From Vampirovibrio chlorellavorus (GTDB lineage Bacteria; Cyanobacteriota; Vampirovibrionia; Vampirovibrionales; Vampirovibrionaceae), in NCBI RefSeq assembly GCF_003149375.1, contig NZ_QFWH01000005.1, positions 14,004-78,003 of the forward strand: a stretch of 64,000 nucleotides of DNA, given 5' to 3'. The position numbers were made by a program, and so were the translations under genes. The notes below the pieces were generated by a model. That model was given only the letters and a program-made list of their open reading frames with translations. It made no database searches and had not been told where the DNA came from. This document shows, one piece after another, positions 1-51,831 of the stretch. Position 1 is the first letter of the stretch. Each line of letters starts with the position of its first letter.

Positions 1-1
1 G

Positions 2-2805: not shown

Positions 2806-2810
2806 GTTCG

Positions 2811-4603: not shown

Positions 4604-4687
4604 ACTTTAACACCCAACAAGCACTTTCTTGACTCTACTTTGGTTCATATCGGCGAGGGCAGGGAAAACTTTAAGCCAATTTCAAAT

Positions 4688-8660: not shown

Positions 8661-8707
8661 ACGATATTTTCCAGCTCTGTTCAGGAAACGGCTTTTGGGG
8701 GAATTTT

Positions 8708-11490: not shown

Positions 11491-11582
11491 TCTTTTTGCA
11501 GGATTTCCGATAAATCTTACCCTGTTCGAACTATTTAAAACGCGCTCATCCCCCTGAGAAGAGCCTCCGGAGCATTTACCCG

Positions 11583-31520: not shown

Positions 31521-32147
31521 ATGCGCCTGCTGAGATACCTTTGGCCAGTGGCCCAAAACCAGGCCGCCCCGACAGGTTTTACCCTGGCGGAATTGTTGAT
31601 CAGTTTGCTCATTCTGGCGGAAATCGCCACCTTTTCCATCCCCAAAATCCTCAGCACCCAGCAGGATGCCCGCAAAAAAGCCATTTTCAAGGAATGCATC
31701 GCCACATTGTATGAGCTCAATACAAAGGCCAGGATGGATCTCAGCGCTAACGTGGCCACGCCAGCTTTACAGAGACAGTTTTTTAGAAACAACCTGAATT
31801 ACGTGAAGGAATGTGCCACCAATCCCGGTTTGGAAGGGTGTCTGGAAGTTGGCGCACCCTATTCGGATCCCGGGAATGCTTCCGCCTTTGTGTTGCCGAA
31901 TGGAGCGGTGCTTACCAGTATAAACGGCCCTCCACTGCCCAGTGCAGAGTCGGTGGGCATTGACTGGAACGGCCCGGCTGGCCCCAACACCTTTGGGGAC
32001 GATATTATATCAGTGACGGTGTGCTACGGCCCCAGCGCCTGTAACGGTGGTATTGGCCCGATTCTGATGGGGCCGACTGGCCCAGGTGCCATAGGACCAA
32101 GCGGCAATCTCGAAAGCGTGACTCTGTGGACAGAAATTTTTAACTGA
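31521..32147 (+). CDS. prepilin-type (type IV pilin / pseudopilin-like) protein
   Basis: Leader then G|FTLAELLISLLILAEIATFSI: canonical prepilin peptidase site with Glu at +5 and a hydrophobic helix. Confidence 0.55.
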   Translation: MRLLRYLWPVAQNQAAPTGFTLAELLISLLILAEIATFSIPKILSTQQDARKKAIFKECIATLYELNTKARMDLSANVATPALQRQFFRNNLNYVKECATNPGLEGCLEVGAPYSDPGNASAFVLPNGAVLTSINGPPLPSAESVGIDWNGPAGPNTFGDDIISVTVCYGPSACNGGIGPILMGPTGPGAIGPSGNLESVTLWTEIFN

Positions 32148-34061: not shown

Positions 34062-36620
34062 TTGGGATTACAGATTCGCTATGACAAGTATTCGCTGATC
34101 ATTGACGGCCAGCGTACCTTTATACGCAGCGGGGCCATGCATTACTTTCGCCTGCCCAGTCAGGCGCTTTGGCAGGATCGGCTCTTCAAGCTGAAGGCGG
34201 CAGGCTATAACGCCGTGGATTTGTATTTCTGCTGGAATTACCACAGCCCGGCCCAAGGGGTGTACGATTTCACCGGCATTCGGGATGTGCAGGAACTACT
34301 CAAAATCACGCAGGAATTGGGATTATTCGTCATTGCCCGGCCGGGCCCGTACATTAACGCGGAATACTCTGGCGGGGGCTTCCCCGGCTGGCTGCTGGCC
34401 AAGCGGCACTTGCCCCTGAGAAATCGACGGGAAGGGGCCTTTGAGTGGTCGGAGGAATATATGGCCTACGTCACCGAATGGTGGCGGCAGATCATACCGT
34501 TTATCAACGCGGCCCCCAACGTCATACTGATGCAAATTGAGAACGAGTACGCCACGCTGGAAGTGGAGCCGGATTACATGCGGGCCTTGTACGATCTCAG
34601 CCGCCAACTGGGTGTGACCGTGCCCCTGTTTCATAATGACTTGTACGTGGCGGGCCTGTACGAAGACATTGTGGATATTTATGCCTTCGACAATTACTCC
34701 GTAACCCAGTTTGAAACCGACTGGCGGGAGATGCCCGAGGTGTTTCAGGTGCTGGATCACGTGGAAGATAATTTACGCCCCTTTTGCCAGAATCGCCCGC
34801 TGATGGCCGCCGAGCTTCAGGCGGGCTGGTTTGGCACCTGGAGAGGCTACAAGTATCAGGAAATCACGGAAACCCTGGGTCGGGAGCATATTGCCCTGTC
34901 CACCAAAAGCCTGTTGGGGCAGGGGCTCACCATTTTTAACCATTACAAGGCCATTGGGGGTACCAACTGGGATTATACCGGCAGCATCGAGACTTACACC
35001 TCTTACGATTTCGGGGCCCCCATTTCGGAGACGGGCCTGAACACTGAGCGCTTGTTCGAGAGCAAGGCCCTCAACTACTTTCTGGAGAGTTTTGATCTGA
35101 GCGCCACCGAGCGGGAGGTGGATTTTCCGCTGCCCCTGTCCCACCGGGAGTGCTTCTACGCCTGTCGCTCCGTGGTGGGAGACACACAGGCCCGCTGGCT
35201 GTTTTTACGCAACCTGACCTACGAGCCCGCCACCCTGACCGTGGCAGAAGCATACCCGGTTACGGTCAATGCCTTTGAGGCGCAAATTCTGCCCCATCAG
35301 GTTCCCTTGCGCTGCGGATACCGACTGGCTTTCAGTACGGTGGAAGCCCTTCACCAGAACGAATCGCTGCTGATCCTCAAGGGCGATCGGGCGGCCACGG
35401 TCACACTCAGCCAGAACGGTCACTCGCAGCCCTTGACCGTGGAGGGCGACTCTTTGCCAAACGGGGTGGAGATCCTGAGTCAGGAGCCAGAAGCCGTGAC
35501 CCTGTACTGCCGGGAAATGCGGGATCAGGAGGCTTGCCAAGTCCAGATTGGCGCATTGACCCTGATTTTCCTGAGTAAGGATCTGGTGGATACCTTCTGG
35601 GTGGAACCGGAGGGTCATCTGGTGTTTGGCCCGGAGGCCCGACTGCCGGATCGCCAATATGGCTTGCTACTGGGGAAAACCCGGTTCTGGAGTACCGATC
35701 CAACCGCCCGGGCTCTACAGGCCCATGTGCTTGAGGCGGCTCCTCCGTTGCCCGTACCTGCCTTGCGGGACTGGCACATTTTCAATGAAGCCCCGGAGCT
35801 GACTGAATTCGAGACACTCAAGCCGGGCTTTGTGCCCGTCAGTCCTCACGGGCTGGACTTTGACAGCAACGGCATTTATGAAGGCTCCGCCTGGTATTGG
35901 GTGCCACTGGGCCGTCAACGACCCGAAACCCTGACCCTCGACGCCCGTCATATTTGGGCCGTTTATTTCAATGGGCAGCGTATCGGGCATGGGCATCAGC
36001 TGGTGGTCATTCACGGTATGGCCCATGCCGAACCTGTGGAAATTCCCGTGCCAGAGTCTCTCTGGCGGCCCAATCAGGACAACGAACTTTTGATCTTCGT
36101 CAATGGGTTGGGGCATCCCAAGGGGTTTCATGATGACGCCCAATTGCCGCAGGGCTTGCTCAGCCTATCGGTGGATGGGGTATCACAGCAGCCGTTCTGC
36201 CATATTCGGCAAGAGACCTTTAGTCGGAGTGCCTCATCATCGACCGAGAACGCTTTGGCCACGCTGGAAGGGTTTGAGGTCAGCCCGATCGTCTTGATGC
36301 AAACCCACTTTATGCTACCGGATGATCAGGGCTGTGAGACCGCATGGGGACTCAAATTGCAGGATGTGGACTTTGAGCGCATCAATATTTATCTGAACAA
36401 TGTGCTAATCGGCCGGTACTGGCGGGATTGTCGTCGGCAAGAAGTGTTTTATTTGCCCACTGGTGTTTTAAAGCAAGGCGCTGATGAGCAGAATTTGCTG
36501 GCATTGGTTTTGATCAATTTCGATCCGCCCATCGATAAGACCCGCTTGTCGCTACAGCCCCATCAGGTGGCCTTGTATCCGTATGCCACCTTGCAGAAGG
36601 CTTTACACCGAGCCGATTGA
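34062..36620 (+). CDS. glycoside hydrolase family 35 beta-galactosidase
   Basis: N-terminal IDGQRTFIRSGAMHYFRLP...LFKLKAAGYNAVDLYFCWNYHSP...PGPYINAEYSGGGFPGWL...ILMQIENEY is the GH35 catalytic signature (acid/base Glu in NEY). Confidence 0.8.
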   Translation: MGLQIRYDKYSLIIDGQRTFIRSGAMHYFRLPSQALWQDRLFKLKAAGYNAVDLYFCWNYHSPAQGVYDFTGIRDVQELLKITQELGLFVIARPGPYINAEYSGGGFPGWLLAKRHLPLRNRREGAFEWSEEYMAYVTEWWRQIIPFINAAPNVILMQIENEYATLEVEPDYMRALYDLSRQLGVTVPLFHNDLYVAGLYEDIVDIYAFDNYSVTQFETDWREMPEVFQVLDHVEDNLRPFCQNRPLMAAELQAGWFGTWRGYKYQEITETLGREHIALSTKSLLGQGLTIFNHYKAIGGTNWDYTGSIETYTSYDFGAPISETGLNTERLFESKALNYFLESFDLSATEREVDFPLPLSHRECFYACRSVVGDTQARWLFLRNLTYEPATLTVAEAYPVTVNAFEAQILPHQVPLRCGYRLAFSTVEALHQNESLLILKGDRAATVTLSQNGHSQPLTVEGDSLPNGVEILSQEPEAVTLYCREMRDQEACQVQIGALTLIFLSKDLVDTFWVEPEGHLVFGPEARLPDRQYGLLLGKTRFWSTDPTARALQAHVLEAAPPLPVPALRDWHIFNEAPELTEFETLKPGFVPVSPHGLDFDSNGIYEGSAWYWVPLGRQRPETLTLDARHIWAVYFNGQRIGHGHQLVVIHGMAHAEPVEIPVPESLWRPNQDNELLIFVNGLGHPKGFHDDAQLPQGLLSLSVDGVSQQPFCHIRQETFSRSASSSTENALATLEGFEVSPIVLMQTHFMLPDDQGCETAWGLKLQDVDFERINIYLNNVLIGRYWRDCRRQEVFYLPTGVLKQGADEQNLLALVLINFDPPIDKTRLSLQPHQVALYPYATLQKALHRAD

Positions 36621-40234: not shown

Positions 40235-41096
40235 AGAACAGGCACGGAAATATCCGTTTTGGGCCTGGCTCAGGGGCTTGTTTCAGAAAGTCAGTGCGGA
40301 TGATTGTCAGGGGCTTGCCGCCGAGGTGGCCTTTAACATGATTCAATCCCTTATCCCGGCCACGTTTTTCCTGATATCCCTGTTCGGTCTGTTGGGGCAG
40401 ACCAGTGTTTTTTACGCTCTGAGCGTGGACTTTATCGATGAACTGGCCCCGGCGCACACCGGCAGTCTGTTGCTTCATCTGCTTGACGCCACCATTCGGG
40501 GTAGCACCACTGGACTGACGCTGGCGGGGATGATGATTACGTTGTGGTCGGCATCCGGGAGTGGCGGTGTCATTGTCAAGGGTCTGAGACGTGCCTACGG
40601 GATTCCGGAAAAAGGCTTTCCCTTCTGGTACACGCCGATGGTATCCATTGTGCTGGTGTTACTCCTGGGCCTGATGCTGGTGGTGGCGATTTATCTCATT
40701 ATGTTTGGCGATGCCCTGATTTCCTGGCTGCATGGCCGCTTCCACTTGCCCTTCAGCGCCGTGACCCTGTTGCGTATCAGTCGCTGGCTGGTGTTGGGCT
40801 GCGGCATTACCGCCATCACCACTCTGACGTACGCCCTGATTCTGCGCCCCAAAACGGGCGGGTTTCGCTGGCGGGTCAGCCTGCCGGGCGCTGTTTTTTT
40901 TCTGATAGCCTGGGTCAGCGTGTCAGAGCTGTTCAGTCTGTACATCAACCACTTGCACCAGTTTAACCCGGTTTACGGAGCGCTGGGAGCCCTGATCATT
41001 CTGGTGACATGGCTTTATTATTCGGCGCTGATTTTCTTTGTGGGGGCTGAAATCACCGCCCGGAGAGCAGGGTCTGCGGATAAAATCGGATTTTAG
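40227..41096 (+). CDS. YihY/BrkB (virulence factor BrkB / RNase BN-like) family inner membrane protein
   Basis: 289 aa, 6 TM. N-terminal LAAEVAFNMIQSLIPATFFLISLFG matches the YihY family. Start overlaps the mgtA stop by 8 nt. Confidence 0.7.
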   Translation: MTEEQARKYPFWAWLRGLFQKVSADDCQGLAAEVAFNMIQSLIPATFFLISLFGLLGQTSVFYALSVDFIDELAPAHTGSLLLHLLDATIRGSTTGLTLAGMMITLWSASGSGGVIVKGLRRAYGIPEKGFPFWYTPMVSIVLVLLLGLMLVVAIYLIMFGDALISWLHGRFHLPFSAVTLLRISRWLVLGCGITAITTLTYALILRPKTGGFRWRVSLPGAVFFLIAWVSVSELFSLYINHLHQFNPVYGALGALIILVTWLYYSALIFFVGAEITARRAGSADKIGF

Positions 41097-41252
41097 GAAA
41101 TGATGAAAATCGGGTTAAAGTTTTTGGCAAACAGAACGATGATCCATGAAAGAGTGTTTAAAATAGTTATATCCGTTACAGGTAAAACGCGTTGGTTGAA
41201 TGTTGAATAATGTAACTCGAAGTAACTCGAAAAGCCGATTGGTGCCAATCCT

Positions 41253-44200
41253 ATGTCTACAATAGGGTCTAAAACAGGCAAAGCTGGTAAAGCCGGATTT
41301 CAGTGGACGCAATTGTTGAAAGTTGCCGGTCGCTTTCCCGTGAGGGGTAAGGGATACGGGCTGGCCATGCTCATGGTGTTTTTGGGCACCACCATGGCCA
41401 TTGGCGCCTCTTTGCAATTAATGAGTGGCCCTTTATCAGCCATTGTCATGGGCAGCGCCAGCCAGAACCGTCTGGCGGCGGAAGAACTGGCCAAAAGTGG
41501 ATTGAGGGCGGTGACCGGCCAGCTTCAGGCTTACTACAATGGCGGGCAAACCATTTCCGCTGGCCTTTCTTTCAACTCTACCAGCGCCCCGGCTTACGTT
41601 CTCATGCCCCAGAGTCCCGACAGTCCGGCTGGAGCGACCCGCTCTGTTGGTTCTTACACCAGCCGGGTTAGTTATGTGAATGGCAATACCCTGCTGGTTA
41701 TGGTAACGGCCACAGTGGGGAGCAGCCAGTCCAGCGTCAGCCAGTTATTGACCCTGACGCGGGACGCTTACCCAATGGCGTTCAACAACATTACAGGTGC
41801 CACCGCCGCTTACGGCTTGCGTCGATTAACCAGCAGCGCCGCTATTACCCGGGCCATTCGGGTACGACGGGGCAGAGACAATGCCGAAACGGACATTGGC
41901 TTTTTACCCAACGGCGATTTGGACATACCCGCCTTGATGACTTTCCTGAATGATGGTCTGACCACTTACCCCAAACCGCTGGATCGGGTGACTGGCGCAG
42001 TTCGGGCTTATAGTTTAAGGAAAATCAACACTGCCTACACGGGCAACGCCATTATCGTCAGGCGCAGTAGCGATGATGCCACCACCAACATAGGCTTTTT
42101 GCCCAATGGCGATTTGGATGCGCCCGCCCTGCTGAGCTTTTGCAAGACGGATAGTTGCTTTGTAACCGCCTGGTATGACCAGAGCGGCAATGGCCGTCAC
42201 GCCACCCAGACCACCCTGGCCGCCCAACCCCGCATTGTGAATGCGGGCGCGCTGGAGATGATCAATGGCCGGGTGGCCCTTCGATTTGATGGCGTGGATG
42301 ATACCATGCTTGGAGCCACCAACAATACAGCCAACAGTTCTTTTAATCTGGTGGTGGCTCAGGTGGACGCCGGGGCCAGCATCACTTTACAAAGCAAAGC
42401 CACTAGCGGTACGTCTGGGACTGGTGGTCAAAAGTATTTGCTGAGCCCTCCCAATGCGGGGGCCGTCAACGCGGGGACAGGAATCTCGCTGGGGGAAAAT
42501 GGGGCGGGTGTCTATGAGCATGGCAATAGTTACATGCCCTGTCTTGCAAATTCGGTCATAAGCCCCAATAGCAACGATGGCCTAGTCGTATCGTACAACT
42601 ACATCAACAAGCAGCCTTTTCTCTTTATCAATAGTAAACTGGTGGATGTGGGGTTCACCTCTCCCCGGGCCGATTTAGCGCTTCCTGTCCATGTCGGCGG
42701 CCCGCCGCCAGTTCATGCGCCCTACGGCTATTTTAAAGGAGCTGTGGGGGAATGGATTCAATACCCTACTAGTTTAACCACCGCCAACCGGCAAATGCTG
42801 GAGAACGATGAAGCCCGATATTATGACCTGACTCTGGCTGATCCGGGGTATACCCCACCGCTGGTAACCGTACCCAGTGCCACCGCCGCTTACGGCTTGC
42901 GTAGATTAATTACTGACAATACCGGAACGACTGATGATGATAAAGCCATTCAGGTGCGTCGTAGCAGTGATAACACCACCCAGATTATTGGTTTTGACCC
43001 CAAAGGAAATCTGGATCTTGCAAACTTGTACAAGTTTTGCGGGGCTGGCAGTTGTTTTGTCTCCATCTGGTACGATCAAAGCGGGAACAACCGGCACCTG
43101 ACCCAGCCCACCGCGGCCAACCAGCCTCGCATTGTGAATGCCGGGGTTTTGGATACCATTAATGGGCGACCTGCCATGCGTAACATAGGAAGCCGGATTT
43201 TGCTGGGGGCGGGTGCAAATCTCATGGCGGGAACCGGTGGGTGGTGGTATTCCACTATACTGGCCGACTATGGCAGCGTTGATACTGCGAACTTCCTGGA
43301 TCGTAACCCCGCCGGCAACAGTAATCCAATTGTGGGGTTAATGAAGGCTTCCGGGAAATTTGGGATTGTGACACGCCGGAATGATGGAACCAATCAAACT
43401 GTGCGGACAGGTTCTTATACCATTCCCAGTGATGGTACGGGTCAACTGGTTTCCTGGCAACGAGTCCGAGGGGTCGAATATACCTTGTTTGTCAATGGCC
43501 TGGTGGATGCTTCCACACCGGATACCGATACGGATATTACCCCACAGGGAGTGGCTGTTCTGGGGCATAATGAGATTGGTTATTATCCCGGTGCCAGTGC
43601 GGCCATGTCAGAACTGATTATTTATAACACCAGCGTTACCACCGCCACTCGGAACCGTCTGGAAGGCAATCAAATGGCCTATTACAACATCAACAATCAG
43701 GAGCCGGACACCGGTTTTGTGACCACCTGGTACGACCAAAGCGGCAATGGTTTCAATTTTATGCAAGGCGAGCGGGAATTACAGCCGGTGATTCGGCTGG
43801 ATAGCAAAACGGGCCGCCCCACCATTCAGTTTAATGGCTTAAACAATTACATGGCCACCGGCACCACCCTCAACTTTACCGGTACCAATGCCCGGGCACT
43901 GGTGGTGGCCAGTATGGACGGTTCTACTGGTAGTGCTGGCAGGTTGTTTGGTGGTAAAAAAAATTCGGACGTCTACGATTACGCCACGCCTGAATCGGTT
44001 TCCTTCCTGCGCCGTTACGGCGCTACCAATCAACTGTTTAGTTACCGAAATAACGCCACGCTGGGCATATCTCCGGCCTTTACCCTGAACCAGCCCTTTC
44101 AGGCCACCTCTGTTTTTAATGGCAGTTCCCATCAAATTCGCGTTAATGGAGTCAATGGTACCTCTGTAGCCAGCAGCGGCTCCTTTGGCATCAACCAGCT

Positions 44201-44345
44201 CTGGCTGGGCGGCGCGCCTTTTCTCTTTCTGGGGGATCTCTGGGCCGGTGGGGTCAGCGAGATTCTTCTCTATCCCAACGCCATGAACGCGGTCCCATTG
44301 GCGCAGCTGGAGCAGGATCAGCGCAGTTACTATGGTACCCCCTGA
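41253..44345 (+). CDS. large surface protein with N-terminal hydrophobic (PilX-N-like or signal) segment and at least three LamG/concanavalin-like lectin-type repeats
   Basis: Repeated modules A(Y)GLRRL...AI.VRRSSD....IGF.P.G.LD...L..FC....CFV..WYDQSGN..H.TQ......QPRIVNAG (three or more copies). The D.SGNGNH motif is characteristic of LamG_3-type domains. Confidence 0.5.
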   Translation: MSTIGSKTGKAGKAGFQWTQLLKVAGRFPVRGKGYGLAMLMVFLGTTMAIGASLQLMSGPLSAIVMGSASQNRLAAEELAKSGLRAVTGQLQAYYNGGQTISAGLSFNSTSAPAYVLMPQSPDSPAGATRSVGSYTSRVSYVNGNTLLVMVTATVGSSQSSVSQLLTLTRDAYPMAFNNITGATAAYGLRRLTSSAAITRAIRVRRGRDNAETDIGFLPNGDLDIPALMTFLNDGLTTYPKPLDRVTGAVRAYSLRKINTAYTGNAIIVRRSSDDATTNIGFLPNGDLDAPALLSFCKTDSCFVTAWYDQSGNGRHATQTTLAAQPRIVNAGALEMINGRVALRFDGVDDTMLGATNNTANSSFNLVVAQVDAGASITLQSKATSGTSGTGGQKYLLSPPNAGAVNAGTGISLGENGAGVYEHGNSYMPCLANSVISPNSNDGLVVSYNYINKQPFLFINSKLVDVGFTSPRADLALPVHVGGPPPVHAPYGYFKGAVGEWIQYPTSLTTANRQMLENDEARYYDLTLADPGYTPPLVTVPSATAAYGLRRLITDNTGTTDDDKAIQVRRSSDNTTQIIGFDPKGNLDLANLYKFCGAGSCFVSIWYDQSGNNRHLTQPTAANQPRIVNAGVLDTINGRPAMRNIGSRILLGAGANLMAGTGGWWYSTILADYGSVDTANFLDRNPAGNSNPIVGLMKASGKFGIVTRRNDGTNQTVRTGSYTIPSDGTGQLVSWQRVRGVEYTLFVNGLVDASTPDTDTDITPQGVAVLGHNEIGYYPGASAAMSELIIYNTSVTTATRNRLEGNQMAYYNINNQEPDTGFVTTWYDQSGNGFNFMQGERELQPVIRLDSKTGRPTIQFNGLNNYMATGTTLNFTGTNARALVVASMDGSTGSAGRLFGGKKNSDVYDYATPESVSFLRRYGATNQLFSYRNNATLGISPAFTLNQPFQATSVFNGSSHQIRVNGVNGTSVASSGSFGINQLWLGGAPFLFLGDLWAGGVSEILLYPNAMNAVPLAQLEQDQRSYYGTP

Positions 44346-44404
44346 CACCTCAGGAGATCTTCACCATCAAGCCCTTTAACCGGAGTCGTGAGGACAAGCA
44401 GCCA

Positions 44405-45343
44405 ATGGACGTCGAGACGCCGCTCAAGCAGGCAAAGCCACTCAAAAGGGCTGGCAGGGGGCTTTCCCTGCTGGAAGTGCTGCTGATGATCACCCTGCTT
44501 TCGGCCACCATTCTGCCCTGCGCCCTCATGCTGACCCGAACCGGCCAAAACGCCCGCGATGTGTACTTGCAGTCCACCCGCAGCATTCTACTCAACAGCC
44601 TGCAGGACGAACAGACTGTCGATCGGAATAATTATGCCTACACGTCTGTTGGTATGAATACCGACACCAGCGAATCCGGGCAGGTCATTCCCTGGCGCTC
44701 CGTGGTGGATGTGACCAATGCCGGGGCTTCGGACAGCTTCCAGAAAACCGTGTTTTATTACCTGTACAACACCGCTGCCGATGCGGCCAATGCCCCCCGC
44801 TACAGTACCAAAGTTATCCAGACCCGAAACACCCTGCGGGTTCGTTTTGACTCTCTACAAGCAGGCTACATGGACTCCTCCGGGCAGTGGTGGAACCCCT
44901 GGGTTCTCTACAATGGGGCTGCCATGGTGCCCGGCATTAATAACGCCAGCAGCGTGTATACCAATTATCCAGCCCAGGCCATCACTAACCTGCCCTCTCA
45001 CCGGGATGCCGATATTTACCGGGGGGGCTGGTATCGTAACGGTGCATCAATCACCTATAGCGCCCCGGTTTCCACAGGGTTATACACGGTCAAGTTGTAC
45101 TTTGCTGATAATTCAGTCGCATCAACACGACTCATGGATATTGTGATGGAAGGAAAGTTAATGAATCCGGGTAATCCATATTTTGCCCCCCCATATTGTG
45201 GCAGCCAGAGTTTTTGCGCCAACGTGCAAATGTTTGACGTGATGGTAACCGATGGCAATCTGGACATCACCATATCTCCCAACAGTAACACGGTCAATGA
45301 CGATCCCTATATTCAGGCGCTTTCCATTAAGAAAAGGACTTAA
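44405..45343 (+). CDS. prepilin-type protein with C-terminal malectin-like carbohydrate-binding domain
   Basis: AGRG|LSLLEVLLMITLLSATIL prepilin cleavage motif (Glu +5). C-terminal YTVKLYFADN...RLMDIVMEGKLM...FDVMVTDGNLDITISP...DPYIQALSI resembles the malectin fold signature. Confidence 0.5.
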   Translation: MDVETPLKQAKPLKRAGRGLSLLEVLLMITLLSATILPCALMLTRTGQNARDVYLQSTRSILLNSLQDEQTVDRNNYAYTSVGMNTDTSESGQVIPWRSVVDVTNAGASDSFQKTVFYYLYNTAADAANAPRYSTKVIQTRNTLRVRFDSLQAGYMDSSGQWWNPWVLYNGAAMVPGINNASSVYTNYPAQAITNLPSHRDADIYRGGWYRNGASITYSAPVSTGLYTVKLYFADNSVASTRLMDIVMEGKLMNPGNPYFAPPYCGSQSFCANVQMFDVMVTDGNLDITISPNSNTVNDDPYIQALSIKKRT

Positions 45344-45347
45344 CCCC

Positions 45348-46970
45348 ATGGCCTGCTTTCAGCGTTTGACGGTTCAAAAAAGACTGCCCGGCTTAACCCT
45401 GGTGGAAATGCTGATTGCCATGGCCCTGATGGGCTTTGTGGTGCTTTCCATGGGGAACTTGCTCTTTGGGGCCAATCTCCGCTCCGTCTCCCTCAACGAG
45501 CGGTTCAAGCTGGCCAGCGAAGTGCATAGCCTGATCGATGACATTCGGGAGGATTTGCACCGGGGGGCCTACATCAGTCCCAATTCTTTCCGCAACCGGT
45601 TGGAATACACCACCTACGATTCCAGTACCGGGGATGCGGTCAAAAAAGTCTACGGCATCTGTTATTACAGCAGCGTGCAAACGGCCAGCACCGATACCAG
45701 CTGTCCCTTGCAGCAGTCGGGGGGCACGTTCCCCTACATCAAACGTTCCGACGATGGCGGGGCCACCTGGGGCTCTCCTTACCGCATTTCCGGCTTTAAC
45801 AAGTACCGGCTGGTTAATGCCAGTGGGCCCCGGTTTTTGTTTGCCCAGTCTGCCAACAATTGTATTGATTACGTGGATAATAACGCCAACGGGGTGCTGG
45901 GAAGCGGCGACACCACCCAGACTCAGGTGAGCTGTGGCACCGCTGCAAACTCATGGTTCGGGGCGACCGCCAATTCCTTAAACCCTACTTACGCCAGTAA
46001 AGTGATATTGAACAACTTTAACTTCACCACGGGCACCGGAAGGCCCGAGACCCTGCGAACCCTGCCCCAGTATATTTTTATCGCTGCCCCGCCCGGCCCG
46101 GTGCGCAGCAATCTGGCGGCGGTGTCCCCGGGGGTGAAAGACACCCAACTGGTCCAGTCTTTTTCCTTTGACAGTACGGTCAATAACATGTGGCCCGCTG
46201 GCTTCAACACCGTGGATTTGGCCTGGGACGCCGCCCATGATCGATTAATTATCGGCAGTGACTCGCATTCAATTCTTTACACCACCGAGCGCAACGGGGT
46301 GTTTATTAATCAGCCTTACGCCCTGAATGACGGCAAATATACAGCCCGAGGAGTGGCCATTGAAGACGACGGTAACACGCTTCACGCCATTAGCAATACC
46401 ACCAGTGAACGCTATCATCGCTATAACCTGAACAGTATCAGCCCCCTGACCGAAGTGGCGGGCGGGGCCAGCGCCACCTTTGTAACGGCGCAGTCCAGCA
46501 GGCTTTTTATGGCTTTTGATCCCAAGAACCGACGCCTTTACATTACCCGGGTGGATAATGACGGATTTTTCAAAATCGTGGAGTTGAACGGCCCGGACTC
46601 TACCGCGCCCCAGACCGAAACGGGTAACAAGTGGCAATTGCCCAGCGCCATCGCAACTTCTTCTCAAATAGGCGGCTTTGAAATTGAGCCGACCACGGGT
46701 GATTTTTTAGTTGTGCGCGATCAGGTCTATGCGGCCGGTGGCAATAACTATCTGGATCTCTACCGCATTCCTCGCACTGGCAGCTACAGTCTGGCCATGG
46801 CTCCTTATTTATCAATCAACCTGACCGATTTGGGCAGTACGGCCACCGGAACCGCTGGCCAGTTTGGGTTGACGTATGATGCGGCGCTCCATCGCCTGTT
46901 TTTGGCCGACAATGTGAGCAAAAGAATTTATGAAGTGGCCCCGGTCAAAATCATCACCCCAAGGACTTGA
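45348..46970 (+). CDS. prepilin-type protein with large C-terminal (propeller-like) extracellular domain
   Basis: LPG|LTLVEMLIAMALMGFVVL prepilin motif. Start at the ATG at 45348 immediately after the upstream stop. About 480 aa C-terminal domain with repeated blade-like segments. Confidence 0.5.
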   Translation: MACFQRLTVQKRLPGLTLVEMLIAMALMGFVVLSMGNLLFGANLRSVSLNERFKLASEVHSLIDDIREDLHRGAYISPNSFRNRLEYTTYDSSTGDAVKKVYGICYYSSVQTASTDTSCPLQQSGGTFPYIKRSDDGGATWGSPYRISGFNKYRLVNASGPRFLFAQSANNCIDYVDNNANGVLGSGDTTQTQVSCGTAANSWFGATANSLNPTYASKVILNNFNFTTGTGRPETLRTLPQYIFIAAPPGPVRSNLAAVSPGVKDTQLVQSFSFDSTVNNMWPAGFNTVDLAWDAAHDRLIIGSDSHSILYTTERNGVFINQPYALNDGKYTARGVAIEDDGNTLHAISNTTSERYHRYNLNSISPLTEVAGGASATFVTAQSSRLFMAFDPKNRRLYITRVDNDGFFKIVELNGPDSTAPQTETGNKWQLPSAIATSSQIGGFEIEPTTGDFLVVRDQVYAAGGNNYLDLYRIPRTGSYSLAMAPYLSINLTDLGSTATGTAGQFGLTYDAALHRLFLADNVSKRIYEVAPVKIITPRT

Positions 46971-46992
46971 TCCGCTGCAAGACCCTGCGCGG

Positions 46993-48480
46993 TTAACGCC
47001 AGCCCCCTCCCAGCGCGCGATACAGATCCACTTTGGAGCCGATTAAATTCATTTTCAGCTCCACCAGTTCCTTTTCGGCATTGAGTTTTTCTTCTTGTGT
47101 CAGCAACACTTCCACATAATCGGCCTTTGCGTATTGAAATAAATTATTGGCAATAGTGACCGAGTCATCCAGTAAGCGCACTTCTCTTTGTTTTGTCTCG
47201 TAGCTTTGTTGTATGTTCTTGATGTTTAACATTTGATTCAGCACTTCGGTATAAGCCTGTAGCAGGGTTTGCTCGTAGTTCAGCACCACCTGTGTTTGAT
47301 AGGAGTCCGCAATGGCGATTCGGGCGATGATGGCCTTTCTGTTGATAACAGGAGCCGTTAAATCCCCCATTAAATTGTAGACCAGGGATTTTGGATTGAA
47401 TAGCAATGCGGAGCCAAACGCTGAAAAGCCAGACTTGGCGTTAATACTCAGGCTGGGATACAAATTGGCCTGGACACTTTTTAGATCCAGTTTCGCCGCC
47501 TTGATGGCAAATTCGGCCTGACGAATATCGGGCCTGTTTTCTAACAGTTGCGTGGGAACACCGACCTGTAATTCGTCAACCTGCATGGTCATTAATTTTT
47601 CGGAGTTTCTGGGAATGGGGGCACCATCATACAAGCCCGATAAAAACTTGAGGCGATTCTTTTTTTCAACGATCTTTTGACTGATTTCAAACCGTTGGCT
47701 TTTGGTTTTCAGCAACTGTGCTTCAAACCGGTTCACTGCCAGGTTATTGGCTTTGGCATATTCCTTCAGCAACTTCATTTTAAGAAAGGCTTTTTCCTGA
47801 ATTTGAATGTTTGCATCCACTATCTTCAAGGAATTATCCAGGGCCATCAATTCATAATAACAGCGGGCGATTTCAGCGACCAATCGTGAGATAAGATAGT
47901 TCCGGCCTTCGTATTGGGCCATTAAACGCATTCTGGCCGCGTCTTTGGCGTTCTGTAACTTTTTCCATATATCCACTTCCCAGGTCATGTTGGGGCCTAT
48001 GTTCAAACCCAGATTGCGGGAATTCAGATCGTTCCTGTCAATAATTTTGTCTAGCACCCCATCCCGTGTGTTTTTTGACACAGCATAGTTTTCAATGCCC
48101 ATCCCCAGGCCCACTTTGGGCAAGTATTCGGCTTGTTTCTCCTTCACCTCATTCCGGGCAATCTCGATATCCTGCAAAAAGATATTGAATTCCTGGTTGT
48201 TTGACAGGGCTGTTTCGATGAGACGAATCAGGTAGGGATCGGAGAAAAATTCCCGCCAGCTGATATGAGCGGCGTTCTCCACTCCTACACTCTCAAAGCC
48301 GTCCGGGTTCTGGGAATCGCTGGACTGACTGTAGCGATACTTGTCAGGAACGTTAAATTTGGGCTCTTTTTGAACCAGATTGAGGGGGTGAAACCAGGAT
48401 CGCGCAAGCACAGGCTCTTGCGTGTTCAATACAAGGAGCGTTAGTGCCGATAGAAAGCCAATTATTTTTATGAACTTCAT
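46993..48480 (-). CDS. efflux transporter outer membrane factor (TolC/NodT family)
   Basis: 495 aa, signal peptide. Two internal repeats of coiled-coil/beta-barrel OMF architecture. C-terminal LYRALGGGW typical of NodT-type OMFs. Confidence 0.75.
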   Translation of the reverse strand: MKFIKIIGFLSALTLLVLNTQEPVLARSWFHPLNLVQKEPKFNVPDKYRYSQSSDSQNPDGFESVGVENAAHISWREFFSDPYLIRLIETALSNNQEFNIFLQDIEIARNEVKEKQAEYLPKVGLGMGIENYAVSKNTRDGVLDKIIDRNDLNSRNLGLNIGPNMTWEVDIWKKLQNAKDAARMRLMAQYEGRNYLISRLVAEIARCYYELMALDNSLKIVDANIQIQEKAFLKMKLLKEYAKANNLAVNRFEAQLLKTKSQRFEISQKIVEKKNRLKFLSGLYDGAPIPRNSEKLMTMQVDELQVGVPTQLLENRPDIRQAEFAIKAAKLDLKSVQANLYPSLSINAKSGFSAFGSALLFNPKSLVYNLMGDLTAPVINRKAIIARIAIADSYQTQVVLNYEQTLLQAYTEVLNQMLNIKNIQQSYETKQREVRLLDDSVTIANNLFQYAKADYVEVLLTQEEKLNAEKELVELKMNLIGSKVDLYRALGGGWR

Positions 48481-48520
48481 AGGGTTTTCCTGATTTTTCT
48501 GGTTCCGTGTTTTCTACTGT

Positions 48521-51500
48521 TTAATCCGGTTTGCTGATTTGCCGGGAGGTTCTCAGTTTGCGAATGAGTCGCCTGAACATCAGCCTGAGTATTTTGAACT
48601 GTGTCTTGTTCCTGGCTTTTTTGCCGACGATTGCTTCTGTCAAGGTGGTCTGCGTTTCATCCTGCAGTAGCTTTTTTCCGTCGACCAGGGTTGCAAACGC
48701 AAAATACAATCCGGGGATGATGACGATGCCAATCAGGGTCCCGGAAATCATGCCGCCCATGGCGGAAGAGCCCAGCGTTCTGTTTCCCACCGCGCCCGCG
48801 CCGTGCGACAAGACCAGTGGCAGGAGTCCGGCTATAAAGGCGAAGGAGGTCATCAAGATCGGCCTGAAACGCATTTTTGCCCCTTCAAGCGCAGCCTCCA
48901 GTATGGATAAGCCTTCATTGCGCTTTTGCACCGCAAACTCGACAATCAACACCGCGTTTTTACCCAAAAGCCCGATCAGCGTGATGATCGCGATCTGTGC
49001 GTAGACATCGTTTGCCAACCCCATGAGCTTGAGCATGAAGTAAGACCCAAAAATCCCGATGGGCAGGGATAATAGCACGGCCAGGGGTAATACAAAGCTC
49101 TCGTACTGAGCCGCCAAGACCAAGTAAACAAATAGCACCACGATCAGGGAGATAACGGCAAATTCATTTCCTCGCTTGGCCTGATCGTATGAGAGATCCT
49201 CCCAGGCAATATCGTAGCCTCTGGGGAGGGTTTTCAGCGCCACGTCTTTTATGGCGTCAATGGCATCGCCCGAGGTGAAGTTATTGCCGGGAAAGCCCCG
49301 AATGACCGCCGAGTTATAGAGGTTATAGCGGGTAATTTCATTGGCCCCCTGTGTTTTCTCAGTGGTCATAAAGGAGCTGTATGGAACCATTTCGCCGTGA
49401 TCGTTCTTGACAAAATAATTGTTCAGGTCATCCAGATTCCTTCTGTACTCCGGTGCGGCCTGGGTGAACACTTTGAAAAAGCGTCCAAACCGGATAAAGC
49501 CCTGCTCGTAGGAACCGCTGATGAGAATATTCAAATTTTCCATGGCGTTGTTGATGGATACGCCCTTTTGCATGGCCAATTGGTTATCTATTTTGATTTT
49601 GTATTGCGGGTATGTGGCGTTGTAAAAAGTAAACAGGCCTCGAATTTCTTTTCGTTTTTCCAGATTGCGCATAAACTCCTGAGTGACTTTTTCAAGTTCC
49701 TGGTAATTGGTTTCACCCGATTTGTCGAGAAGGCGCAAGGAAAACCCGCCAGAGGTACCGAAGCCGGGAATGGCAGGTGGTTCAAAAAATTCCACCTTGG
49801 CGCCCAGGGCCTCGGATTTTTTCTCCAGCGCCTCAATGATGTCATGCACACTCTCTTTTCTTTCTTCCCAGCTTTTCAGGTTGATCAGGCAGGTGCCGGC
49901 GTTGGAGCCCCTACCTTCCGTCATAATCTCATAGCCCACCATTGAGGTGACGGATTCGACCCCCTCTACTTTTTCGGAAATTTTTTGTAACTGACTCACG
50001 ACCTGGTTGGTATATTCCAGGGTCGAGCCGGGGGGCGTTTGCACAATCGCGTAAATGGTGCCTTGATCTTCACTGGGTACAAAGCCTGAGGAGACGATTT
50101 TGTTAAAAATAAAAATCCCGATTGCAAATAATACGATAACCCCGAAGGTGATGACACGCTTGGTGACAATTTTATCCAGAAGCCACATGTAGCGTTGCGT
50201 CAATTTATCGAAAAGCACATTGAATTGATCGATCCCGCGTTTCAATAAATTCCTGGATTTTTTGTGGCTGGCGTGTTCGCCGTGACTGTCATGATTGCCG
50301 TGGCTGCCATGATTTCTGAGAACCATCGCGCACAGTACAGGCGTCAGGGTGAGCGCCACTAACCCCGAAATGATAATGGAACTGGCCATGGTAATGGAAA
50401 ATTGCCTGTAAAATACGCCCACAGGGCCACTCATAAAGGCAATCGGACAGAATACGGAAATCATAACCAGGGTGATGGCAATAATGGCTCCCCCCAGTTC
50501 CTTCATGGCTTTTTGGGTGGCAGCGTAGGGAGAGAGTGTGGGATCTTCCTCCATTTTACTGTGGACGGCTTCTACCACCACAATGGCATCGTCTACCACA
50601 ATCCCGATTGCCAGAACCACCGCAAACAGGGTAATCAGGTTGATGGACATTCCAAATAGAAGCAGCACGAAAAAGGCGCCAATCAGGGAAATGGGTACCG
50701 CGATAATGGGAATGATGGTAGATCGCCAATCCCCCAGGAATAAAAATACCACCAGGGTTACCAAAATAAACGCGTCTCTGATGGTATCCACTACCTGCTC
50801 AATTGAAGCGTCCAGAAATTTGGAAACATCGTAACTGTATTTGACTTTGATGCCGTCTGGAAAATCTTTTTCAAGCTCTTTGATCTTTTCCTTGATATTT
50901 TTGATGACGGCCGCCCCATTGCTGTTGGGTGTTTGCTTCAGTATGAGCGAGGCGGACGGCTTGCCATCCAGCGTGTTATAGATGTCATAAAATTCGCTTC
51001 CCAGTTCAACTTCGGCGACATCCTTGAGCTTGACCATTTCTCCAAACTCGGAACTTTTGATAATGATGTTCTCGTATTGCTTGGGCTCATTGTAGCGACC
51101 CTCATAGTCAAGAACGTACTCCGTTGCCTGGGCTTTTTTCCCGGAACTTTGACCCAACCTGCCGGGACGGGCAATAATACTTTGTTCGCTAATCGCCTTG
51201 ACCACTTCTTCCGGAGAGATGCTGTAAGCCCTCAACCTGTCTGGCTTTAACCAAATTCTCATGGAGTAGGTCCGGGTACCCAGCAAGCTGGCGTTGGCCA
51301 CCCCGTTTATGCGTTGAATTTCGGGAATCAGCTTGGTGTAGGCGTAATTAAAAAGGTATTTTTGATCGATATTTTTGGATTCAGAATATAAATCGATGTA
51401 CATCAACATGGAGGGTTGGAGCGGTAATAAGATGACACCCTCTCGTTGCACCAACTCGGGCAGAGAGGTCATGACCCTATCCACCCGTGTTTTCACGTTG

Positions 51501-51814
51501 ACCACGGCCTGGTTTGAATCGGTTCCGGGTTCAAAAACCAGTCTCAGCGTCGCCTCACCGGCACTGGTCGCGTCGGAGGCCATATAACGCATGCCCGGAA
51601 CGCCGTTAATGGCCGCCTCTAGCGGAATTAAGGTGGATTTTGTCAGGACATCCGCACTGGCGCCCGGATAGGCAATGAAGACGTTGACCACTGTGGGCGC
51701 GATTTGTGGAAACTGTGAGATAGGCAGTTGCTGAATGGAAAGACAGCCCAAAAATACGATAAATATTGAGATGACCAGACCTAAAACCGGTCTTTTAAGT
51801 ATATTCTGAAACAT
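48521..51814 (-). CDS. RND efflux pump permease (AcrB/HAE1-like) with His-rich insertion in the TM6-TM7 cytoplasmic loop
   Basis: 1097 aa, 12 TM with two large periplasmic loops. N-terminal MFQNILKRPV...FIVFLG...QLPISQFPQIAPTVVNV matches AcrB. Insert VLRNHGSHGNHDSHGEHASH at about 50255..50330. Confidence 0.85.
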   Translation of the reverse strand: MFQNILKRPVLGLVISIFIVFLGCLSIQQLPISQFPQIAPTVVNVFIAYPGASADVLTKSTLIPLEAAINGVPGMRYMASDATSAGEATLRLVFEPGTDSNQAVVNVKTRVDRVMTSLPELVQREGVILLPLQPSMLMYIDLYSESKNIDQKYLFNYAYTKLIPEIQRINGVANASLLGTRTYSMRIWLKPDRLRAYSISPEEVVKAISEQSIIARPGRLGQSSGKKAQATEYVLDYEGRYNEPKQYENIIIKSSEFGEMVKLKDVAEVELGSEFYDIYNTLDGKPSASLILKQTPNSNGAAVIKNIKEKIKELEKDFPDGIKVKYSYDVSKFLDASIEQVVDTIRDAFILVTLVVFLFLGDWRSTIIPIIAVPISLIGAFFVLLLFGMSINLITLFAVVLAIGIVVDDAIVVVEAVHSKMEEDPTLSPYAATQKAMKELGGAIIAITLVMISVFCPIAFMSGPVGVFYRQFSITMASSIIISGLVALTLTPVLCAMVLRNHGSHGNHDSHGEHASHKKSRNLLKRGIDQFNVLFDKLTQRYMWLLDKIVTKRVITFGVIVLFAIGIFIFNKIVSSGFVPSEDQGTIYAIVQTPPGSTLEYTNQVVSQLQKISEKVEGVESVTSMVGYEIMTEGRGSNAGTCLINLKSWEERKESVHDIIEALEKKSEALGAKVEFFEPPAIPGFGTSGGFSLRLLDKSGETNYQELEKVTQEFMRNLEKRKEIRGLFTFYNATYPQYKIKIDNQLAMQKGVSINNAMENLNILISGSYEQGFIRFGRFFKVFTQAAPEYRRNLDDLNNYFVKNDHGEMVPYSSFMTTEKTQGANEITRYNLYNSAVIRGFPGNNFTSGDAIDAIKDVALKTLPRGYDIAWEDLSYDQAKRGNEFAVISLIVVLFVYLVLAAQYESFVLPLAVLLSLPIGIFGSYFMLKLMGLANDVYAQIAIITLIGLLGKNAVLIVEFAVQKRNEGLSILEAALEGAKMRFRPILMTSFAFIAGLLPLVLSHGAGAVGNRTLGSSAMGGMISGTLIGIVIIPGLYFAFATLVDGKKLLQDETQTTLTEAIVGKKARNKTQFKILRLMFRRLIRKLRTSRQISKPD

Positions 51815-51831
51815 CGTGATAAAAATCTCAG

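What the first reader, a model, noticed from the sequence alone, without database searches (positions are those of the whole stretch)
41253..46970. Three-gene prepilin-type locus encoding lectin-domain proteins (LamG repeats, malectin-like, propeller-like)
Two ORFs have canonical prepilin peptidase sites (G|LSLLE, G|LTLVE). The first, 1030-aa product has a PilX-N-like hydrophobic start followed by at least three tandem roughly 100-aa modules carrying the WYDQSGNG(R/N)H motif of LamG/concanavalin-like domains. The second ends in a malectin-like sugar-binding domain. The third has a roughly 480-aa propeller-like ectodomain. Pilins or pseudopilins carrying large carbohydrate-binding modules suggest a pilus, or a type II secretion pseudopilus, used for glycan adhesion. 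A fourth prepilin-like gene lies at 31521..32147. No PilB/C/Q genes are in the window.
Basis: partly seen in the sequence, partly recalled or inferred. Interest (0 to 1): 0.6.

Follow-up and report, generated by a model that had tools for sequence, protein, structure and literature searches.

The report
Sugar-binding minor pilin trio, algal predator
In a bacterium that preys on the green alga Chlorella, three neighbouring genes encode pilus-subunit-like proteins that each carry a different sugar-binding-type or propeller domain, so they are good but untested candidates for the part of the pilus that grips the sugar-rich algal wall.

Summary
The window is Vampirovibrio chlorellavorus. Genes 41253-44345, 44405-45343 and 45348-46970 sit 59 and 4 nt apart on the + strand.

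- **Pilin signals.** Genes 2 and 3 have class III (prepilin) signal peptides. Gly-1 and Glu+5 are invariant or nearly so in 18 and 44 homologues.
- **Gene 1.** Its conserved N-terminus (basic leader, GYGL, hydrophobic helix) lacks Glu5, as PilX/GspK-type capping pilins do. A predicted helix plus beta-sheet follows. No PilX/GspK family match was found.
- **Gene 2** ends in a malectin domain.
- **Gene 3** is a large pilin module with a Ca-loop-like motif, followed by a five-bladed beta-propeller.
- **Distribution.** The set was found in Vampirovibrio and Melainabacteria genomes, in several copies per genome. One lectin module is swapped between strains.

Best reading: a tip-located set of modular minor pilins for glycan adhesion, probably to prey. 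This is inferred, not shown. It is a new variant of a known kind.

The parts
41253..44345 (+). ORF1, 1030 aa: PilX/GspK-like (no Glu5) N-terminus plus three GH54-like/LamG beta-sandwich modules. RefSeq WP_303674200.1 is called from M39 (992 aa), which cuts the conserved GYGL motif.
41352..41762 (+). ORF1 aa 34-170: conserved G-Y-G-L plus about 22 hydrophobic residues, a long predicted helix (36-58, 63-96) and a beta-sheet (106-167). This is a putative pilin-like module with Met in place of Glu5.
   Evidence: G34, Y35 and G36 are at least 90% conserved in 29 sequences. AF2 secondary structure. hhalign places GYGL on the G|LTLVE of ORF3, probability 53%, E 1.4e-4. No PilX_N or GspK hit.
41799..41999 (+). 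ORF1 aa 183-249: an extra copy of the roughly 60-aa AYGLRR...IRVRR...DIGF...LD subdomain, without WYDQSGN.
   Evidence: 56% identical to the start of module B, E 7e-15
42000..42887 (+). ORF1 module B, aa 250-545 (WYDQSGNGRH at 307): GH54-catalytic-like beta-sandwich.
42888..43697 (+). ORF1 module C, aa 546-815 (WYDQSGNNRH at 606). The sandwich part (631-815) is a swapped cassette between strains.
   Evidence: The sandwich is 26-32% identical to P0004 and P0005, while the flanking modules are 83-99% identical.
43698..44342 (+). ORF1 module D, aa 816-1030 (WYDQSGNGFN at 826): LamG-like sandwich lacking the N-terminal subdomain.
   Evidence: best-modelled part of the AF2 model, pLDDT mostly 74-90
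44405..45343 (+). ORF2, 312 aa: prepilin (19-aa leader, G19|LSLLE24), a PilV-like pilin module (aa 20 to about 150) and a C-terminal malectin domain (aa 181-305, nt 44945-45319). RefSeq WP_303674201.1.
   Evidence: G19, S21, L22 and E24 are invariant in 18 sequences. Malectin. TIGR02523 PilV is matched weakly (E up to 0.01, all below the family cut-off) by 11 of 18 members.
45348..46970 (+). ORF3, 540 aa: prepilin (15-aa leader, G15|LTLVE20), a large pilin module (aa 16 to about 262) and a five-bladed beta-propeller (aa about 265-540, nt 46140-46967). RefSeq WP_303674202.1.
45861..45935 (+). ORF3 aa 172-196: an invariant Cys pair encloses D177-x-N-x-N-G-V-x-x-x-G-D188, an EF-hand/dockerin-like 12-residue loop and putative Ca2+ site.
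   Evidence: C172, C196 and D177 in 44/44; position 5 N/D in 43/44; G182 in 43/44; position 12 D/E in 42/44. Pattern only; metal binding was not tested.
31521..32147 (+). Separate 208-aa prepilin gene (TG|FTLAEL), 9 kb upstream. Any link to the trio is unproven.
   Evidence: Prepilin-like genes lie at varying distances in related loci. The published genome table contains 36 occurrences of the term 'prepilin', mostly gene entries.

Best explanation
The three genes form an operon-like cassette of modular minor pilins in Vampirovibrio chlorellavorus.

**Proposed assembly (inferred).**
- The genome's prepilin peptidase processes ORF2 (PilV/GspI-like) and ORF3 (PilW/GspJ-like).
- The N-terminal helices of these two pack with the helix of ORF1.
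- ORF1 lacks Glu5 and so behaves like the capping PilX/GspK subunit.
- Together they form a small complex that seeds a type IV filament and therefore ends up at its tip.

**Proposed function (inferred).**
- Each subunit carries a bulky non-pilin module: three GH54-like/LamG sandwiches, a malectin domain, and a five-bladed propeller.
- The filament tip would therefore display several carbohydrate-recognition surfaces.
- The most likely use is adhesion to glycans, above all the sugar-rich wall of the algal prey.
- Paralogous cassettes and swapping of one lectin module would vary the specificity.

**Shown:** the gene arrangement, the signal-peptide motifs and their conservation, the domain identities at family or fold level, the phylogenetic restriction, and the mosaicism.

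**Inferred:** processing, complex formation, tip location, glycan binding and the link to prey.
For: - **Arrangement.** The genes are co-directional with gaps of 59 and 4 nt, and ORF2 and ORF3 have Shine-Dalgarno-like sites.
- **Class III signal peptides.** They are conserved across all homologues of ORF2 and ORF3. ORF3 passes the Pfam N_methyl cut-off.
- **ORF1 N-terminus.** GYGL plus a hydrophobic helix is conserved in 29 sequences, with no acidic residue at +5. It aligns on the cleavage motif of ORF3. The model shows a long helix and then a beta-sheet. Loss of Glu5 in the capping PilX subunit is established knowledge, restated in bioRxiv 10.64898/2026.02.12.705559.
- **ORF2.** Malectin domain.
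- **ORF3.** The propeller resembles binding platforms, including the phage phi11 receptor-binding protein.
- **Linkage.** ORF2 and ORF3 are adjacent in all 9 distinct related loci. ORF1 is adjacent in 6 of the 9, in three different gene orders.
- **Copy number and mosaicism.** Strain NCIMB 11383 has two paralogous sets. Compared with that strain, module D is 99% identical but the module C sandwich only 32%.
- **Assembly machinery.** The genome has PulO, PilB, PilC, secretin and PilT, and pili were seen by electron microscopy (PMC4451040).
- **Precedent.** The S. sanguinis PilA-PilB-PilC tip complex contains a glycan-binding ConA-like pilin (PMC9934059). Modular pilins are widespread (PMC8179133).
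- **Prey wall.** Chlorella walls are rich in rhamnose, arabinose, galactose, uronic acids and glucosamine (PMC8759652).
Against: - No experiment bears on processing, assembly or binding.
- ORF1 matches no PilX_N, GspK or other pilin family. Its N-terminal helix is modelled at low confidence. The profile link to ORF3 is weak (probability 53%).
- The matches of ORF2 and ORF3 to PilV, GspJ, PpdB-type and HpsC models all fall far below the curated cut-offs and cover only the N-terminal 70 residues or so.
- No FimU/GspH-like fourth subunit is in the cassette.
- The cassette is never next to PilB, PilC or PilQ in any locus examined.
- In 3 of 9 related loci ORF1 is not within 10 kb, so the trio is not obligatory.
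- The ORF1 modules resemble a glycosidase catalytic domain more than any lectin, so an enzymatic role is not excluded.
- The ligand and the link to prey rest only on the organism's lifestyle.
Confidence: 0.5

Rival explanations
1. ORF1 is a working glycoside hydrolase, a GH54-like alpha-L-arabinofuranosidase or related enzyme, as its RefSeq name implies. The cassette would deliver or display an enzyme that attacks the algal wall rather than a lectin.
Against: Sequence and profile similarity stops at GH54 residues 20-118. The strands carrying D219/E221 (VDMEN) and D297 (GGDNS) cannot be aligned to any of the three modules. The only acidic residues invariant in each module are the D of YDQS and the E of the last strand, which are shared framework positions. 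No CBM42/AbfB arabinose-binding domain was found. Homologous modules in other family members pass the lectin-type Laminin_G_3 model.
Confidence: 0.12
2. The cassette primes a non-adhesive type IV filament. This could be a type II secretion pseudopilus or a polysaccharide-secretion or motility filament like the cyanobacterial Hps/PilX-EPS set. The sugar-binding modules would then handle the cell's own exopolysaccharide or secreted cargo.
For: 19 of 44 ORF3-family members weakly match the HpsC pseudopilin model, and 5 match GspJ. NCBI names one homologue GspJ. Photosynthetic cyanobacteria encode sets of a large PilX plus PilV and PilW linked to EPS and motility. The window also carries an exosortase/EPS locus at 1-13115. 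The genome lists several PulD, PulE and PulF genes.
Against: All of these matches are N-terminal only and far below the cut-offs, for example HpsC at 15 bits against a cut-off of 200. ORF1 has LamG/GH54 sandwiches, not the beta-solenoid that defines cyanobacterial PilX/HpsA. Modules totalling about 1,300 residues are hard to fit on a periplasmic pseudopilus; this last point is inference. No secretion or hps genes are adjacent.
Confidence: 0.15
3. The proteins are not filament subunits. They would be bitopic inner-membrane proteins, or proteins released into the periplasm or outside the cell, that merely use a pilin-like N-terminal anchor. Their role might be sensing or processing of imported glycans.
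For: The cassette is never next to pilus assembly genes. A GH35 beta-galactosidase and a family-5 solute-binding protein (SBP_bac_5) lie nearby in the window. Pilin-like proteins with accessory domains and regulatory roles are described in cyanobacteria.
Against: Those regulatory pilin-like proteins lack the alpha1N helix. Here Gly-1, Glu5 and the hydrophobic alpha1N are invariant or nearly so in ORF2 and ORF3, which is the signature of subunits that polymerise. Minor pilin genes are commonly unlinked from the machinery; that is established knowledge.
Confidence: 0.1

Closest known systems
[quoted passage not shown]
   Different: S. sanguinis is a monoderm and uses vWA plus one lectin module. 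Here the organism is a diderm and all three subunits are modular: three GH54-like sandwiches, a malectin domain and a propeller. The large lectin-bearing subunit lacks Glu5. There is no detectable sequence homology.
Core minor pilin/pseudopilin priming complex: FimU-PilV-PilW-PilX in type IV pili, GspH-I-J-K in type II secretion
   Same: Two subunits with Glu5 and one large subunit without it are encoded side by side. The N-terminal regions give weak PilV-type (ORF2) and GspJ/PpdB-type (ORF3) matches.
   Different: No family cut-off is reached. There is no fourth, H/FimU-like gene. The gene order is variable. Every subunit carries a large added domain. No PilY1 was identified.
Cyanobacterial PilX-PilV-PilW-FimT sets, including the HpsA-type PilX-EPS (bioRxiv 10.64898/2026.02.12.705559)
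   Same: They occur in the same phylum-level lineage. They have a very large PilX-like subunit encoded next to PilV-like and PilW-like pilins, with several sets per genome. The bulky domain is proposed to replace PilY1 as the tip plug.
   Different: Their defining feature is a beta-solenoid inserted within the pilin fold. ORF1 instead has C-terminally appended GH54-like/LamG sandwiches. ORF2 and ORF3 carry malectin and propeller modules not described there. That study does not mention Vampirovibrio or Melainabacteria in its main text.
GH54 alpha-L-arabinofuranosidase B catalytic domain (Aspergillus kawachii AbfB, PDB 1wd3; Pfam PF09206)
   Different: The catalytic D219/E221 and D297 regions cannot be aligned. 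There is no CBM42 domain. The module is repeated three times and fused to a pilin-like N-terminus.
PilY1/PilC tip adhesins (C-terminal beta-propeller with a Ca2+ site)
   Same: A beta-propeller and an EF-hand-like Ca2+ loop motif are associated with the minor pilin set.
   Different: ORF3's propeller is five-bladed, of the YjiK/glutaminyl-cyclase type. It is fused directly to a pilin, and the Ca-like loop is in the pilin module. ORF3 gave no match to the Pfam PilC/PilY1 family (PF05567) among the families reported.
Verru_Chthon cassette proteins A-D (TIGR02596 to TIGR02600)
   Same: These are multi-copy cassettes of prepilin-type proteins with a large partner, of unknown function. 12 of 44 ORF3-family members weakly match protein C.
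   Different: The matches are below the cut-offs. ORF1 matches no NCBIfam model. The phylum is different.

Membership tests
Type IV pilin class (class III signal peptide) | Short basic leader ending in Gly, then about 20 hydrophobic residues with Glu at +5 | tested here: met
   ORF2 has G19|LSLLE24 and ORF3 has G15|LTLVE20. Both are conserved in 18 and 44 homologues. ORF3 scores 21.9 bits on N_methyl against a cut-off of 21.2. ORF1 has the Gly and the hydrophobic stretch but no Glu5.
Type IV pilin class (class III signal peptide) | Long N-terminal alpha-helix packed on an antiparallel beta-sheet | tested here: met
   ORF3 model: helix 18-72, then strands, pLDDT 83. ORF1 model: helices 36-96, then sheet 106-167, at lower confidence. 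ORF2 was not modelled.
Type IV pilin class (class III signal peptide) | Cleavage and N-methylation by a PilD/PulO prepilin peptidase | not testable with these tools
   A pulO gene is listed for the V. chlorellavorus genome (PMC4451040 Table S3). Processing itself is unknown.
PilX / GspK capping minor pilin (ORF1) | Lacks Glu5 | tested here: met
   Met at +5. No acidic residue at that column in 29 sequences.
PilX / GspK capping minor pilin (ORF1) | Match to the PilX_N, GspK or cyanobacterial PilX (beta-solenoid) families | tested here: not met
   No Pfam, NCBIfam or PDB-sequence hit for the N-terminal 180 aa, even at E up to 10. The model shows sandwiches, not a solenoid.
PilV / GspI (ORF2) | Score above the curated cut-off of TIGR02523 or TIGR01707 | tested here: not met
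   TIGR02523 scores 19.4 bits against a cut-off of 52.2, over residues 18-90 only. 11 of 18 homologues match weakly.
PilW / GspJ (ORF3) | Score above the curated cut-off of the GspJ or PpdB-type models | tested here: not met
   PRK10557 scores 25 bits against a cut-off of 120. GspJ is matched by 5 of 44 members, N-terminal only. The large two-sheet pilin module is compatible with the family but was not compared structurally.
GH54 alpha-L-arabinofuranosidase | Full-length PF09206 catalytic domain | tested here: not met
GH54 alpha-L-arabinofuranosidase | Catalytic nucleophile E221 and acid/base D297 (residue roles recalled from the literature on AbfB) | tested here: inconclusive
   The VDMEN and GGDNS segments of 1wd3 have no alignable counterpart in modules B, C or D. 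A structure-based residue mapping could not be made.
GH54 alpha-L-arabinofuranosidase | C-terminal arabinose-binding domain (CBM42) | tested here: not met
   No such Pfam hit in ORF1 or in its 28 homologues.
Laminin_G_3 / ConA-like lectin superfamily | PF13385 above its gathering score, or a ConA-like jelly-roll fold | tested here: met
   By sequence the window protein fails (E 0.14, 12.7 bits against 27.6). 13 of 29 aligned homologues match at E up to 0.1 (best 8.8e-19), and the fold matches neurexin LNS, laminin LG, pentraxins, CBM40 and PilC.
Malectin (PF11721) | Score above the gathering cut-off | tested here: met
   27.5 bits against 23. 16 of 18 homologues are pre-annotated with PF11721. 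The family profile matches FERONIA malectin-like domains at E 4e-9.
Malectin (PF11721) | Carbohydrate binding | not testable with these tools
   Needs glycan arrays, ITC or a structure.
PilY1 / PilC tip adhesin | PilY1-type C-terminal propeller (Pfam PF05567) | tested here: not met
Hps hormogonium polysaccharide pseudopilins | NCBIfam HpsA-C equivalog cut-offs | tested here: not met
   HpsC scores 15.3 bits against a cut-off of 200. ORF1 matches no NCBIfam model.

The most novel reading that the evidence does not exclude
The cassette is the prey-recognition device of Vampirovibrio. In this reading, all three priming subunits of a type IV pilus tip have been turned into glycan-recognition modules. 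The GH54-like sandwiches would still cut or tightly clamp arabinofuranosyl-containing or related algal wall polymers. Cassette exchange of lectin modules and paralogous sets would determine which algae a strain can attack.
Probability: 0.15. Interest if true: 0.75.

Novelty: new variant of a known kind. Interest (0 to 1): 0.5.

Why it matters
How Vampirovibrio recognises and holds Chlorella is unknown. The genome paper only suggested pili, OmpA and vWA proteins in general terms. V. chlorellavorus also destroys commercial algal ponds, so an attachment mechanism is of practical interest.

This cassette gives three concrete, expressible candidates for that step: malectin, propeller and GH54-like modules. 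It also gives a strain-variable module that could be compared with prey range.

For pilus biology it would extend the modular pilin idea from single subunits to a whole priming set. It would also offer a possible PilY1-free solution in which a propeller is fused to a pilin. If the proteins turn out not to be on pili, the locus is simply a lineage-specific set of surface glycan-binding proteins.

Tried and rejected
1. **A family for the ORF1 N-terminus.** Pfam and NCBIfam on the protein, Pfam on 16 N-terminal fragments at E up to 10, and a PDB profile search gave nothing credible.
2. **Linkage to pilus machinery.** I looked in the window and in 9 distinct related loci with 10-kb flanks. None was found.
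3. **Promoter and terminator scan of 40900-47300.** Counts did not differ from shuffled sequence, so the scan was uninformative.
4. **Rfam and tRNA scan of the window.** Only two tRNAs were found, both outside the locus.
5. **The 'HAG(I/L)VDME' motif.** In 13 of 28 ORF1 homologues it resembles the VDMEN nucleophile strand of GH54. I rejected it as evidence because it is absent from the window protein, is not supported by hhalign, and sits about 80 rather than 129 residues after YDQS.
6. **The genome scan.** The first attempt, with the 44-sequence alignment, failed for lack of a conserved stretch. It worked with 10 sequences.
7. **Faster divergence than the neighbours.** Against the closest strain the trio is 86-94% identical and the flanking genes 88-98%. 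Whole-gene divergence is therefore not distinctive. The signal is the module-level mosaic.
8. **Prior description.** Searches found no paper on these genes. The held supplements of the modular-pilin survey mention neither malectin, PF09206 nor Vampirovibrio.

Full report
**Source and annotation.** ORF1 is 100% identical to a protein of Vampirovibrio chlorellavorus, a non-photosynthetic, cyanobacteria-related predator of Chlorella. The exact sequences occur in two public assemblies with the same gene order. RefSeq names the three products piecemeal:
- WP_303674200.1, 'arabinofuranosidase catalytic domain-containing protein';
- WP_303674201.1, 'malectin domain-containing carbohydrate-binding protein';

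**Checking the observation.**
- Three + strand ORFs lie at 41253-44345, 44405-45343 and 45252/45348-46970.
- The gaps are 59 nt and 4 nt. GAGGA and AAGGA precede ORF2 and ORF3.
- ORF3 should start at 45348. Homologues, public gene calls and the ribosome-binding site all agree on this.
- A six-frame regex finds only three N-terminal prepilin motifs in the 64 kb, in ORF2, ORF3 and the 31521-32147 ORF.
- WYDQSGN occurs at aa 307, 606 and 826 of ORF1.
- The repeats are real but long. B (249-545) against C (543-815) gives 36% identity, E 1e-37. B against D (815-1030) gives 26%, E 1e-10. An extra 67-aa copy of the N-terminal subdomain sits at 183-249.
- No PilB, PilC or PilQ family is present in the scanned ORFs of the window.
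- The neighbours are a P-type ATPase and BrkB upstream, and a convergent OEP-AcrB-MFP efflux operon downstream.

**ORF2.**
- In 18 homologues G19, S21, L22 and E24 are invariant. This is a canonical class III signal peptide, G|(F/L)SLLEV.
- Residues 18-90 weakly resemble PilV (TIGR02523, 19 bits against a cut-off of 52). 11 of 18 members match it, and JGI labels several homologues PilV.
- The C-terminus is a malectin domain: Pfam 27.5 bits against a cut-off of 23, and the family profile matches FERONIA malectin-like domains at E 4e-9.

**ORF3.**
- G15, L18 and E20 are at least 90% conserved in 44 sequences. N_methyl passes its cut-off.
- The AF2 model is good (pLDDT 83, pTM 0.78). It shows helix 18-72, a pilin domain of about 190 aa, then an all-beta domain.
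- There is no significant sequence match in the PDB.
- NCBIfam matches are N-terminal and below the cut-offs: PRK10557 in 39 of 44 members, HpsC in 19, GspJ in 5 and PilV in 6. NCBI calls one homologue GspJ.
- Inside the pilin module an invariant Cys pair (C172, C196) encloses D-x-N-x-N-G-V-x-x-x-G-D. This is an EF-hand/dockerin-like loop conserved in 42-44 of 44 sequences. It is a putative Ca2+ site, by pattern only.

**ORF1, N-terminus.**
- All 29 aligned proteins share a basic leader of 10-33 residues, then G-Y-G-L and about 22 hydrophobic residues. G34, Y35 and G36 are at least 90% conserved, and no acidic residue occupies +5.
- RefSeq's start at M39 removes this motif and is probably wrong.
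- The model is moderate (pLDDT 70). It gives helices 36-58 and 63-96, then a sheet at 106-167.
- Profile-profile alignment places GYGL on ORF3's G|LTLVE, at only 53% probability, E 1.4e-4.
- No PilX_N, GspK or other pilin family is matched.
- ORF1 therefore works like a Glu5-less capping pilin on present evidence, but it is not a demonstrated member of that family.

**ORF1, modules.**
- Pfam finds only PF09206, twice, covering positions 12-87 of 315.
- A PDB profile search matches A. kawachii AbfB residues 21-87, including FCxxxxC...YDQSGNGNHLTQ.
- I recovered the 1wd3 sequence and aligned each module profile to it. Only residues 20-118 align. The VDMEN (D219/E221) and GGDNS (D297) segments do not.
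- Catalysis is therefore unsupported but not excluded.
- 13 of 29 aligned homologues match Laminin_G_3 at E up to 0.1.

**Conservation and distribution.**
- A genome scan found the ORF3 family only in Vampirovibrio and Melainabacteria assemblies (8 loci). Two weak N-terminal hits came from Acidobacteriota.
- A search of 1.8 billion representative proteins returned roughly 35 full-length relatives. The other hits were propeller-blade repeats in giant proteins.
- ORF2 and ORF3 are adjacent in every locus. ORF1 is adjacent in most, in the orders 1-2-3, 2-3-1, or divergent. It is absent within 10 kb in L009, L011 and L012.
- Strain NCIMB 11383 has two sets, L008 and L013. One 370-kb contig carries two ORF1 and two ORF3 paralogues.
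- ORF1 is mosaic. Against the NCIMB 11383 protein, module D is 99% identical and B is 89-95%. The module C sandwich is only 32% identical and the pilin module 54%. Against P0004 only the C sandwich differs, at 26%.
- This pattern is typical of recombining adhesins and receptor-binding proteins.

**Mechanism.** The published genome analysis lists a PulO peptidase, PilB/PulE, PilC/PulF, PulD, PilT and many prepilin-type genes. It cites electron micrographs of pili and proposes pili as one attachment factor (PMC4451040).

Three lines from the literature bear on the model:
- Minor pilins I/J/K (PilV/W/X) form a tip complex capped by the Glu5-less subunit (restated).
- S. sanguinis PilA-B-C forms a tip complex with a glycan-binding ConA-like pilin (PMC9934059).
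- Modular pilins are widespread, and PF13385 fusions are among the commonest (PMC8179133).

Photosynthetic cyanobacteria encode PilX-PilV-PilW-FimT sets with a huge PilX. Its added domain is a beta-solenoid, and Vampirovibrio does not appear in that study's main text.

I therefore read the cassette as a modular variant of a priming set. It would place malectin, propeller and GH54-like sandwiches at a filament tip for glycan adhesion. Chlorella walls are rich in rhamnose, arabinose, galactose, uronic acids and glucosamine (PMC8759652).

Processing, assembly, location and ligand are all inferred. The rival explanations, namely an active glycosidase, a secretion or EPS pseudopilus, or proteins that are not filament subunits, are scored separately.

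**Verdict.** The locus is a new variant of a known kind (modular minor pilins) and is of moderate interest, mainly as a testable candidate for prey attachment.

Noticed in passing
window 46993-52926; L003 14843-19696; L013 14842-17638; L004 2997-6350: In four independent loci the pilin cassette lies within a few kb of a tripartite efflux or secretion system. These are OEP + AcrB + MFP in the window, OEP + ABC + MFP in L003, OEP + HlyD (+ MFS) in L013, and MFP + MacB + ABC ATPase in L004. It may be chance in genomes rich in such systems, or a real functional link.
   Followed up: partly
window 41253-41367: RefSeq starts ORF1 at M39 (992 aa), which removes the family-wide conserved GYGL motif and half of the hydrophobic helix. 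The 1030-aa form, or an internal TTG or GTG start upstream of 41352, fits the homologues better. No Shine-Dalgarno site is evident before 41253.
   Followed up: partly
window 43143-43697 (ORF1 aa 631-815) compared with P0004 and P0005: The beta-sandwich of module C is replaced by an unrelated-looking type (26-32% identity) in otherwise 83-99% identical proteins of other V. chlorellavorus strains. The pilin module is also replaced in the type strain (54%). Family members carry at least three sandwich subtypes in positions B and C, and one homologue (P0010) has 1300 aa.
   Followed up: partly
window 45861-45935 (ORF3 aa 172-196): An invariant Cys-Cys loop contains a DxNxNGVxxxGD motif like an EF-hand or dockerin Ca2+ site. 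It recalls the Ca2+ sites of pseudopilins and PilY1.
   Followed up: partly
window 1366-13115: An exopolysaccharide and exosortase locus: MurJ-like flippase, sugar transferase, epimerase, GT4, Wza-like Poly_export, a Wzz-like protein, and an exosortase EpsH fused to DUF3485.
   Followed up: no
L013 6840-8747 (V. chlorellavorus NCIMB 11383 contig_1): A 635-aa protein with 11 matched ankyrin-repeat stretches lies directly upstream of the paralogous pilin cassette. Ankyrin proteins in bacteria are often effectors aimed at eukaryotic cells, which is notable in a predator of algae.
   Followed up: no
window 59938-62838, 62838-63929 and 5863-7308: Large ORFs of 966, 363 and 481 aa have no Pfam family at E up to 0.001.
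   Followed up: no
window 34062-36620, 32194-33852 and 54079-55368: Glycan-related genes lie near the cassette: a GH35 beta-galactosidase, a family-5 solute-binding protein (SBP_bac_5), and a protein like the catalytic domain of HGSNAT heparan-alpha-glucosaminide N-acetyltransferase.
   Followed up: no
proteins P0037-P0120: The GH54-N plus LamG module of ORF1 also occurs in long surface proteins of other phyla. Examples are Bacteroidota proteins with a PF18962 C-terminal domain (recalled as the type IX secretion sorting tail), an autotransporter-associated beta-strand protein, and Paraburkholderia adhaesiva proteins. It therefore looks like a widely used extracellular module whose function seems uncharacterised.
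   Followed up: no
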